Below are positions 2,742-3,173 of a stretch of DNA of 20,000 bases, one piece after another. Numbering within the stretch: position 1 is the first letter of the stretch; each line of letters begins with the position of its first letter. Made by a program: the position numbers and the translations under genes. Under the pieces are notes generated by a model. That model had not been told where the DNA came from. It searched no databases and saw only the letters and a program-made list of their open reading frames with translations. Location of the stretch: IMG/VR virus record IMGVR_UViG_3300017978_000236; one strand, 5' to 3'. Origin of the DNA: an uncultured virus (IMG/VR IMGVR_UViG_3300017978_000236) (taxonomy: Duplodnaviria > Heunggongvirae > Uroviricota > Caudoviricetes > Crassvirales).

Positions 2742-3173
2742 AATTAAATTATAAAATTCGCACCTATATACGTGCGGTTTTGTGACTGTGAATGTATATT
2801 TTTAACCCTGCTTTATGCGGGTTTGATTAAAAACTAATCAAGAACTATTGACTATAAAAAATCCTTACCTATATTGATGCTGCACAAATGTATTAATACA
2901 CTTGCCTACTATGCAGCGGTAAGCCTTAGGACTACGCGCAAATACAACCTAGTAATTTTTTAAAATTTGCGTTTGTTGTAGGGTTTAAAATAGCCTTATT
3001 TTTGCTATTCACCTACCAAAATGTCTATTCACTTTATTTTTAATTTAGTCACATTTGTAAACTAAAAAAACCTTATATATTTTTGAGCTATTGCCACAAA
3101 AACGGGTTAAAAATAAGAGGTAAAAAAAGAACGTGCGCCAAACTCTTCAGCATTGACTTAATGGCTGTCAATG
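2742..3173 (-). ncRNA. Candidate large structured ncRNA
   Basis: No ORF in the track; at least 9 complementary segment pairs including long-range and crossing ones (see findings); bounded by a ribozyme cleavage site and a terminator. Confidence 0.55.

What the first reader, a model, noticed from the sequence alone, without database searches (positions are those of the whole stretch)
2742..3136. Densely paired non-coding region with long-range and crossing helices
Seen pairs (+ coordinates): 2797-2808/3104-3115 (perfect 12 bp TATTTTTAACCC); 2781-2787/3047-3053 plus 2788-2793/3027-3032, crossing the 12-bp helix; stacked 2864-2869/2918-2923 and 2879-2884/2912-2917 around palindrome 2889-2900. 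Also 2937-2943/2965-2971 crossing 2943-2948/2975-2980 (H-type pseudoknot or switch); 2978-2982/3012-3016 enclosing 2989-2994/3004-3009; local hairpins 2759-2776 and 2823-2841. Inference: a complex folded RNA; many of the stems are GC-richer than the background.
Basis: seen in the sequence. Interest (0 to 1): 0.7.

Follow-up and report, generated by a model that had tools for sequence, protein, structure and literature searches.

The report
Phage hammerhead–boxA antitermination RNA cassette
This stretch is the core of a conserved folded RNA of about 460 nt, with no match in the Rfam library, in freshwater phages that likely infect Bacteroidota; it lies on the opposite strand from the one first read, between a predicted self-cutting ribozyme and a predicted stop signal, and it likely helps RNA polymerase read on into the phage's recombination and replication genes.

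Summary
All nine listed helices are in the sequence, but the RNA is on the minus strand and larger than the finding. Five homologues (L012, L021-23, L026) and metatranscriptome variants keep the local helices with two-sided and G-U changes. The H-type pseudoknot and the 2781-93 long-range pairs are not conserved; the 12-bp helix holds in 3 of 5. The RNA sits in a cassette: first gene of a 20-kb operon (167-aa orphan), type II hammerhead (102/102 cells paired), the first half of the Bacteroidota rRNA-operon boxA-position motif (14 of 14 cassettes), a closed three-way junction, a remnant second half, a swappable ~230-nt domain, a terminator and a tRNA-like minihelix. No Rfam family matches. Best reading (0.5, inferred): a protein-plus-RNA antitermination device working like conAn or lambda N/nut. 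Main rival (0.3): a stable ROOL/GOLLD-like RNA produced like a pre-rRNA. No activity was tested.

The parts
3200..3703 (-). First gene of the leftward operon: 167-aa Lys-rich, mostly helical protein of an unnamed phage family; candidate partner of the RNA (inferred)
   Evidence: 74 homologue clusters; no Pfam/PHROG/PDB match
3796..3803 (-). Candidate Bacteroidota-type -7 promoter box upstream of the ORF (consensus recalled; one mismatch)
   Evidence: pattern match only
3137..3196 (-). Type II hammerhead: stem III 3192-3188/3179-3175, predicted cut between 3174 and 3173, stem I 3173-3167/3157-3151, core 3150-3143, 1-bp stem II (3196/3143), loop I-tail pseudoknot 3165-3162/3140-3137
   Evidence: (6 sequences, 102/102 cells paired, 9 of 17 pairs with two-sided change), coordinates
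2709..3173 (-). Predicted discrete RNA (~460 nt) from hammerhead cut to terminator
   Evidence: RNA-run contigs lying wholly within 2786-3157 in 4 of 4 runs laid; ends inferred
3127..3134 (-). 5' half of the Bacteroidota rrn boxA-position motif
   Evidence: present 63-100 nt after the stop in 14 of 14 cassettes, expected ~0.005 each; host motif
3028..3124 (-). Closed three-way junction: closing helix 3124-20/3032-28 and 3116-07/3043-34, hairpins 3103-3097/3085-79 and 3066-57/3052-44
3016..3025 (-). Degenerate 3' half of the boxA-position motif (GACAUUUUGG; GACAUAUUGA in other types)
2978..3016 (-). Helices P5 (3016-12/2982-78) and P6 (3010-04/2994-88)
   Evidence: two-sided changes in L012, L026
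2937..2971 (-). Helix P7 with conserved large loop (candidate pseudoknot 2949-46/2823-20, weak)
   Evidence: 5 of 5
2864..2923 (-). Helices P9 and P10 with lineage-specific apical stem (2905-2897/2892-84)
   Evidence: two-sided change 2868/2919 in run X22
2825..2863 (-). Helices P11 (2863-60/2828-25) and P12 (2854-48/2841-35)
   Evidence: 6 of 6, hand-set register; weaker
2797..2808 (-). 3' strand of the 12-bp long-range helix with 3115-3104; competes with the local closing helix for the same 5' strand
   Evidence: beats 300 shuffles in W, L022; 7/300 in L012; not in L023, L026
2782..2792 (-). Copy of the recurring strand-specific motif TTCACA(A/G)TCA(T/C)
2759..2776 (-). Lineage-specific hairpin
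2709..2741 (-). Intrinsic-terminator-like hairpin with U run
   Evidence: two-sided change 2718/2737 in L022 and run X22
2662..2704 (-). tRNA-like minihelix: acceptor stem plus T arm, 10-nt connector, no anticodon arm
   Evidence: T arm in 11 of 12 cassettes examined; not called by ARAGORN

Best explanation
The region is the structured core of a minus-strand RNA that follows the first gene of a 20-kb phage operon and precedes a terminator-like hairpin, and it likely works in cis as an antitermination device: a predicted hammerhead would cut the nascent RNA free of the upstream message, host Nus factors would load on the boxA-like site, and the upstream protein would likely bind the junction so that polymerase passes the terminator. 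Shown: the strand, covarying helices, hammerhead fold, boxA-position motif, terminator and minihelix folds, and gene order. Inferred: cleavage, Nus loading, protein binding, read-through. The terminated ~460-nt RNA would accumulate as the 'off' product, and RNase P/Z cutting at the minihelix would free the downstream message (inferred).
For: Layout: ORF, 345-430-nt RNA, terminator, then an operon with ERF, YqaJ, HTH_36, Thy1 and a BT4734-like/weak AAA_25 protein. This is the conAn layout (PMC8191782, abstract and passages). The boxA-position motif is real in hosts: 71 of 122 GTDB loci lie beside rRNA, and 20 of 20 picked loci were confirmed by Rfam. Its 5' half lies 63-100 nt after the stop in 14 of 14 cassettes, 0 antisense. 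A full copy is in L030 (19/19) and L029 (18/19). A strong hairpin with U run closes 7 of 12 cassettes scanned. No Bacteroidota-type promoter pattern lies between the terminator and genome 42114, ~5.8 kb. The junction travels with the protein family: the same three-way fold occurs in 9 of 10 cassettes with 107-109-nt spacing, L025 lacking only the outer helix. Phages with other first genes have other junctions (L005, L007), while the 3' domain swaps independently.
Against: No activity tested. The window's boxA is contiguous for only 7 nt; its best contiguous score is 14/19. The operon is not rich in terminators: 3 sense hits in 19 kb, one being the cassette's own, and 3 found versus 3.7 expected in L193. 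Three promoter-like sites lie further down. No conserved RNA-only antiterminator helix was found (1 of 10 cassettes beats shuffles). A hammerhead detaches the message, which sits oddly with the cis-only action of ConAn1. RNA-run contigs cover the element and not the ORF, which fits a stable product RNA as well. Only about four independent sequences support type A.
Confidence: 0.5

Rival explanations
1. A stable trans-acting large non-coding RNA (ROOL/GOLLD-like in role) made like a pre-rRNA: boxA recruits the Nus complex as folding chaperone, the hammerhead sets the 5' end, the 12-bp helix is a leader-trailer helix, and the terminator or tRNA-like element sets the 3' end. It would act as a decoy or scaffold for host RNA-binding or defence proteins.
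For: Contigs of 151-340 nt lie wholly within 2786-3157 in 4 of 4 RNA runs laid, and none of the same strain covers the ORF. A 703-nt contig in X21 spans another phage's block up to the minihelix. Defined ends; boxA-RNA-tRNA order as in rrn spacers. Several interchangeable 3' domains.
Against: Contig depth was only 2-8, contigs give no ends or strand, and no DNA-run control is available. The long-range closing helix is significant in only 3 of 12 cassettes. The fixed position as gate of the main early operon is not explained.
Confidence: 0.3
2. Protein and RNA form an RNP of the type III toxin-antitoxin or AbiF kind (superinfection exclusion or host shut-off), with the RNA restraining the protein.
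For: Gene and RNA are adjacent and exchanged as a cassette; the protein has invariant polar residues.
Against: No RNA repeats were seen, and the same 3' RNA domain follows different, at most remotely related proteins (L011/L024 versus L004/L007).
Confidence: 0.08
3. A DNA-level element (replication origin or cruciform cluster) or leftover processing signals without a unified RNA fold.
For: The cumulative GC-skew minimum lies nearby at ~3250-4250; folding z is weak in some homologues (L012 -0.9).
Against: G-U-preserving changes on one strand only; a covarying hammerhead with pseudoknot.
Confidence: 0.05
4. The first reader's plus-strand fold, with crossing long-range helices and an H-type pseudoknot.
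For: All helices are perfect in the window; z -3.16 on +.
Against: Variants at 2881, 2897 and 3083 break pairs on +; crossing helices hold in 2 of 5 and the pseudoknot in 1 of 5 sequences.
Confidence: 0.04

Closest known systems
conAn bipartite antitermination system (pLS20 and other Gram-positive conjugative elements; PMC8191782, abstract and passages read)
   Same: Small first-gene protein directly followed by a 260-600-nt, poorly conserved RNA, with an inverted repeat enclosing the centre, upstream of a terminator and a long operon.
   Different: Here a phage of a Gram-negative phylum, with a hammerhead, a boxA-like site and a tRNA-like element; no detectable likeness to plasmid proteins; 'boxA' does not occur in that paper's main text.
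Lambda N/nut and rrn antitermination (boxA, boxB; PMC10250234 and PMC13753749, passages read)
   Same: A boxA-position motif beside hairpins, upstream of a terminator that guards recombination and replication genes.
   Different: The motif is split or duplicated around a ~100-nt junction, the RNA is ten times larger than nut, and the protein shows no match to N.
Type II hammerhead with pseudoknot (PMC3088659, abstract and passages read)
   Same: Full core, closed stems I and III, one-pair stem II, loop I-tail pseudoknot; found in phage intergenic regions.
   Different: Not scored by Rfam models here; it occupies a slot that other small folds fill in relatives.
ROOL and GOLLD large phage RNAs (PMC5737381, passages read; supplement not readable)
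   Same: Large multi-junction RNA in phages next to tRNA-type elements.
   Different: Shorter; no Rfam match; only a weak pseudoknot candidate.
DUF2693 RNA (Rfam RF02956)
   Same: Its consensus starts with the same boxA-position motif (weak hit on L030, E 3.6).
   Different: No match in this genome; the rest of the structure differs.

Membership tests
Type II hammerhead | CUGANGA, GAAA and NUH core | tested here: met
   invariant in 6 of 6
Type II hammerhead | Stems I and III closed, stem II open, loop I-tail pseudoknot | tested here: met
   102/102 cells paired; 9 of 17 pairs two-sided; slid controls 24-41%
Type II hammerhead | Self-cleavage | not testable with these tools
   needs in vitro assay
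conAn | First-gene protein followed directly by a several-hundred-nt RNA and then a terminator | tested here: met
conAn | Protein homologous to ConAn1 | tested here: inconclusive
   tblastn of plasmids gave no match at E<=1, but ConAn1 orthologues share only 13-33% identity
conAn | Located on a Gram-positive conjugative element | tested here: not met
   65-kb virus record with terminal repeat
conAn | Processive antitermination activity | not testable with these tools
   needs reporter assay
rrn/nut boxA | Contiguous host consensus | tested here: not met
   window: first 7 nt only, best contiguous 14/19; met in L030 (19/19) and L029 (18/19)
rrn/nut boxA | NusB-S10 binding | not testable with these tools
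   the label boxA for the Bacteroidota motif rests on its position and its likeness to GYTCTTTAANA
Lambda N family | N-like protein | tested here: inconclusive
   no hit in PDB sequences, Pfam, PHROGs or fold searches
ROOL / GOLLD | Match to covariance model | tested here: not met
Group I intron | Core model match and an interrupted gene | tested here: not met
   no Rfam hit; intergenic, with intact flanking ORFs
HEARO / omega RNA | Adjacent IscB/TnpB-type nuclease and model match | tested here: not met
   167-aa neighbour has no Pfam hit; no Rfam hit
tRNA / tmRNA | Complete cloverleaf or tmRNA body | tested here: not met
   ARAGORN 0 genes; only the T arm matches

The most novel reading that the evidence does not exclude
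A split boxA: the two halves of the host's rRNA antitermination signal are held ~100 nt apart and brought together only when a phage protein stabilises the three-way junction between them, making Nus loading a protein-gated switch. The cassette is insulated by interchangeable self-cleaving RNAs (a hammerhead in some phages, undescribed three-way folds in others), carries swappable large RNA domains, and is renewed along the operon by repeated UUCACAAUCAU sites.
Probability: 0.2. Interest if true: 0.88.

Novelty: new variant of a known kind. Interest (0 to 1): 0.72.

Why it matters
Few RNA-based processive antiterminators are described (put, EAR and conAn, per PMC8191782). My ten library searches found none in a Bacteroidota phage, and none joined to a ribozyme or a boxA; most subscription papers are not in that library. 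If right, this gives a modular natural series, with the same frame but different proteins and RNA domains, for asking how large nascent RNAs modify RNA polymerase. It also gives a testable boxA for Bacteroidota and candidate new self-cleaving RNAs. If the rival holds, it is a new family of large phage RNAs with defined ends, suitable for cryo-EM.

Tried and rejected
Rfam scans of the window and of 15 loci: no hit at a gathering score. blastn of phages: 9 short chance hits. First DNA pattern: 0 hits. Hammerhead pattern: 6 loci, 4 of them chance. Core pattern: 38 loci, only L055 (= L012) real. Plasmid search for the boxA stretch: uninformative. Protein: no significant Foldseek PDB hit (best E 0.97; recurring weak uS7 rows); VIA best Z 4.5 and 4.8; one unnamed viral relative; no Atlas hit. 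The second model covered residues 1-140 only. The L007 protein shares only a 21-column motif (probability 5.8%) and the L005 protein nothing. The covariance model from A6 had 4 pairs and was not used. Twister, pistol, group I P7 and RNase P readings were considered by eye from recalled consensus and dropped, as the needed strands are not conserved. The idea that the RNA guides the repeated motif was dropped: complementarity is confined to the window lineage, and two complete or near-complete relatives lack the motif. Mis-set registers: (redone), the L021 rows, and the Pc1/Pc2/PK rows for L012, L023 and L026 (searches used instead). L028 was dropped from counts because its contig ends at the ORF.

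Full report
OBSERVATION. All nine helices are perfectly complementary at the stated places. The excess over chance is modest: a 12-bp helix appears in 7 of 200 shuffles, and MFE z is -3.16 (+) and -2.33 (-). No ORF over 44 aa overlaps the region. Rfam gives nothing at a gathering score.

CONTEXT. The window is part of a complete 65,218-nt phage record with terminal repeat. The host is inferred to be Bacteroidota from the motif described below. The region follows the first gene (3703-3200, minus) of a leftward block of ~20 kb that includes ERF, YqaJ, HTH_36, Thy1 and a BT4734-like protein. Three close relatives have a different first gene and a different non-coding block in the same slot, followed by the same tRNA-like element. 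The protein family (74 clusters) led to 14 loci. One, L028, ends at the ORF. Five carry the window's RNA type (L021 98.6%, L022 95.8%, L012, L023 and L026 ~66-70% over the aligned parts). The other eight carry other types.

STRAND AND FOLD. One search listed 15 variant sites within 2714-3134 in four RNA runs; 17 further rows were not shown. In my minus-strand model six are unpaired and nine paired. Eight of the nine keep the pair, including two two-sided changes (2868/2919 and 2718/2737), and one breaks (3041). Three become G-U on minus but C-A on plus. With hand-set registers, helices P2b, P3, P5, P6, P7 and P9-P12 pair fully in 6 of 6 sequences, with many two-sided changes; such fitting leans toward the model. 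The two crossing helices, the palindrome stem and the 2823-41 hairpin hold in 2 of 5, and the H-type pseudoknot in 1 of 5. The 5' strand of the 12-bp helix has a second, local 10-bp partner (3043-3034), so the two are alternatives. Its pairing with the 3' tail beats shuffles in W and L022 (0/300) and L012 (7/300), but not in nine other cassettes. Folding z of homologues ranges from -0.9 to -3.9. About four independent sequences underlie all this.

FLANKS. A type II hammerhead lies at 3196-3137 with a predicted cut at 3174/3173. Across 6 sequences, 102 of 102 cells pair and 9 of 17 pairs change on both sides, including one pseudoknot pair. This architecture, with a one-pair stem II, is described in PMC3088659 (abstract and passages). 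It is present in 6 of 14 cassettes; in the others a different small fold fills the slot. Downstream are a terminator-like hairpin (2741-2709) and a minihelix of acceptor stem and T arm without anticodon arm (2704-2662).

THE BOXA-POSITION MOTIF. All 14 cassettes have A[AC]GUUC[AU]U 63-100 nt after the stop (expected ~0.005 each, 0 antisense; the loci are related, so these are not independent events). GACAUAUUGA, or a degenerate form, follows 107-121 nt later in 12 cassettes, and 157-162 nt later as part of a full copy in L029 and L030. The joined motif, searched in GTDB, gave 122 loci, of which 71 lie beside rRNA: 61 with 23S and 5 with 16S downstream. Rfam confirmed 20 of 20 that I picked as likely operons. 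That is where boxA lies in rrn operons (PMC10250234 and PMC13753749, passages), and the first seven letters fit GYTCTTTAANA (bioRxiv 10.1101/091223, passages). The name boxA is therefore inferred, not shown. Between the halves, the sequence folds as a closed junction with two hairpins in 9 of 10 cassettes with 107-109-nt spacing; L025 lacks only the outer helix. In L004 and L007 a boxA-like run is contiguous and aligns with the second half of L011/L024, followed by the same 3' domain. So junction and 3' domain are separate modules.

EXPRESSION. Of 24 runs listed, 5 were RNA and 4 were laid. In 4 of 4, contigs lie wholly on the element (2798-3137, 2806-3139, 2882-3147; 2786-2932 and 3007-3157), and none of the same strain covers the ORF. 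Depth is 2-8, contigs show neither ends nor strand, and no DNA-run comparison is available, so this is a weak hint.

MECHANISM. The closest working analogue is conAn (PMC8191782, abstract and passages): a small first-gene protein plus a 260-600-nt, poorly conserved RNA directly behind it, which lets polymerase pass terminators. Lambda N/nut supplies the boxA parallel. I put 0.5 on cis antitermination. Against it: few terminators in the operon, three promoter-like sites further down, no conserved antiterminator helix, a degenerate boxA in this phage, and a protein with no known relative. The rival at 0.3 is a stable large RNA made like a pre-rRNA; the two readings are not exclusive.

NOVELTY. 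The RNA family has no Rfam model, and my searches found no account of such a cassette. Papers not named above were seen as search listings only; PMC5737381 was seen as passages, and its supplement could not be read. The hammerhead is a new member of a known class, and the whole is a new variant of a known kind. It concerns the same stretch and is not independent support; I had recorded that order before.

Noticed in passing
window 2792, 1841, 591; genome G000 43617, 40448, 37459, 29197, 21083 (all minus): Motif TTCACA(A/G)TCA(T/C): 6 exact TTCACAATCA versus 0.1-0.17 expected on minus, 0 on plus. 10 copies each, all on one strand, in G001 and G003, densest just after the cassette; 1 in G002, 0 in G004 and G005. 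Resembles the boxA-position motif with four middle letters changed. The last copy may be fixed by protein sequence.
   Followed up: partly
L024:537-600, L025:1175-1236, L014:2915-2990, L026:2940-3010, L011:2985-3045, L027:1135-1192: Three kinds of small folds, each shared by two phages, fill the hammerhead slot and end in U(A/G)CAAA; candidates for undescribed self-cleaving RNAs. No Rfam match.
   Followed up: partly
L004:3960-4730, L007:3940-4720, L005:3940-4485, L011, L014, L024, L025, L027, L029, L030 after the ORF: At least four further large non-coding block types in the same slot, none matching Rfam; L011/L024/L004/L007 share a 3' domain.
   Followed up: partly
run X21 record 7: A 703-nt RNA-run contig, depth 21.5, spans an L007-type block up to the minihelix.
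   Followed up: no
L114 (Flavobacteriaceae MAG): The boxA-position motif also precedes a host cluster of eight tRNAs.
   Followed up: no
window 1752-1830 and relatives (e.g. L007 6902-6974): An ~80-nt stretch has a second, ~90% identical match elsewhere in the relatives' loci.
   Followed up: no
window 6361-8192: Phage-borne GroEL-like and GroES-like genes (recognised from the translation, not scanned).
   Followed up: no
G000 9136-9527, 30251-30325, ~29836: Six tRNAs called by ARAGORN and one further uncalled T-arm element.
   Followed up: no
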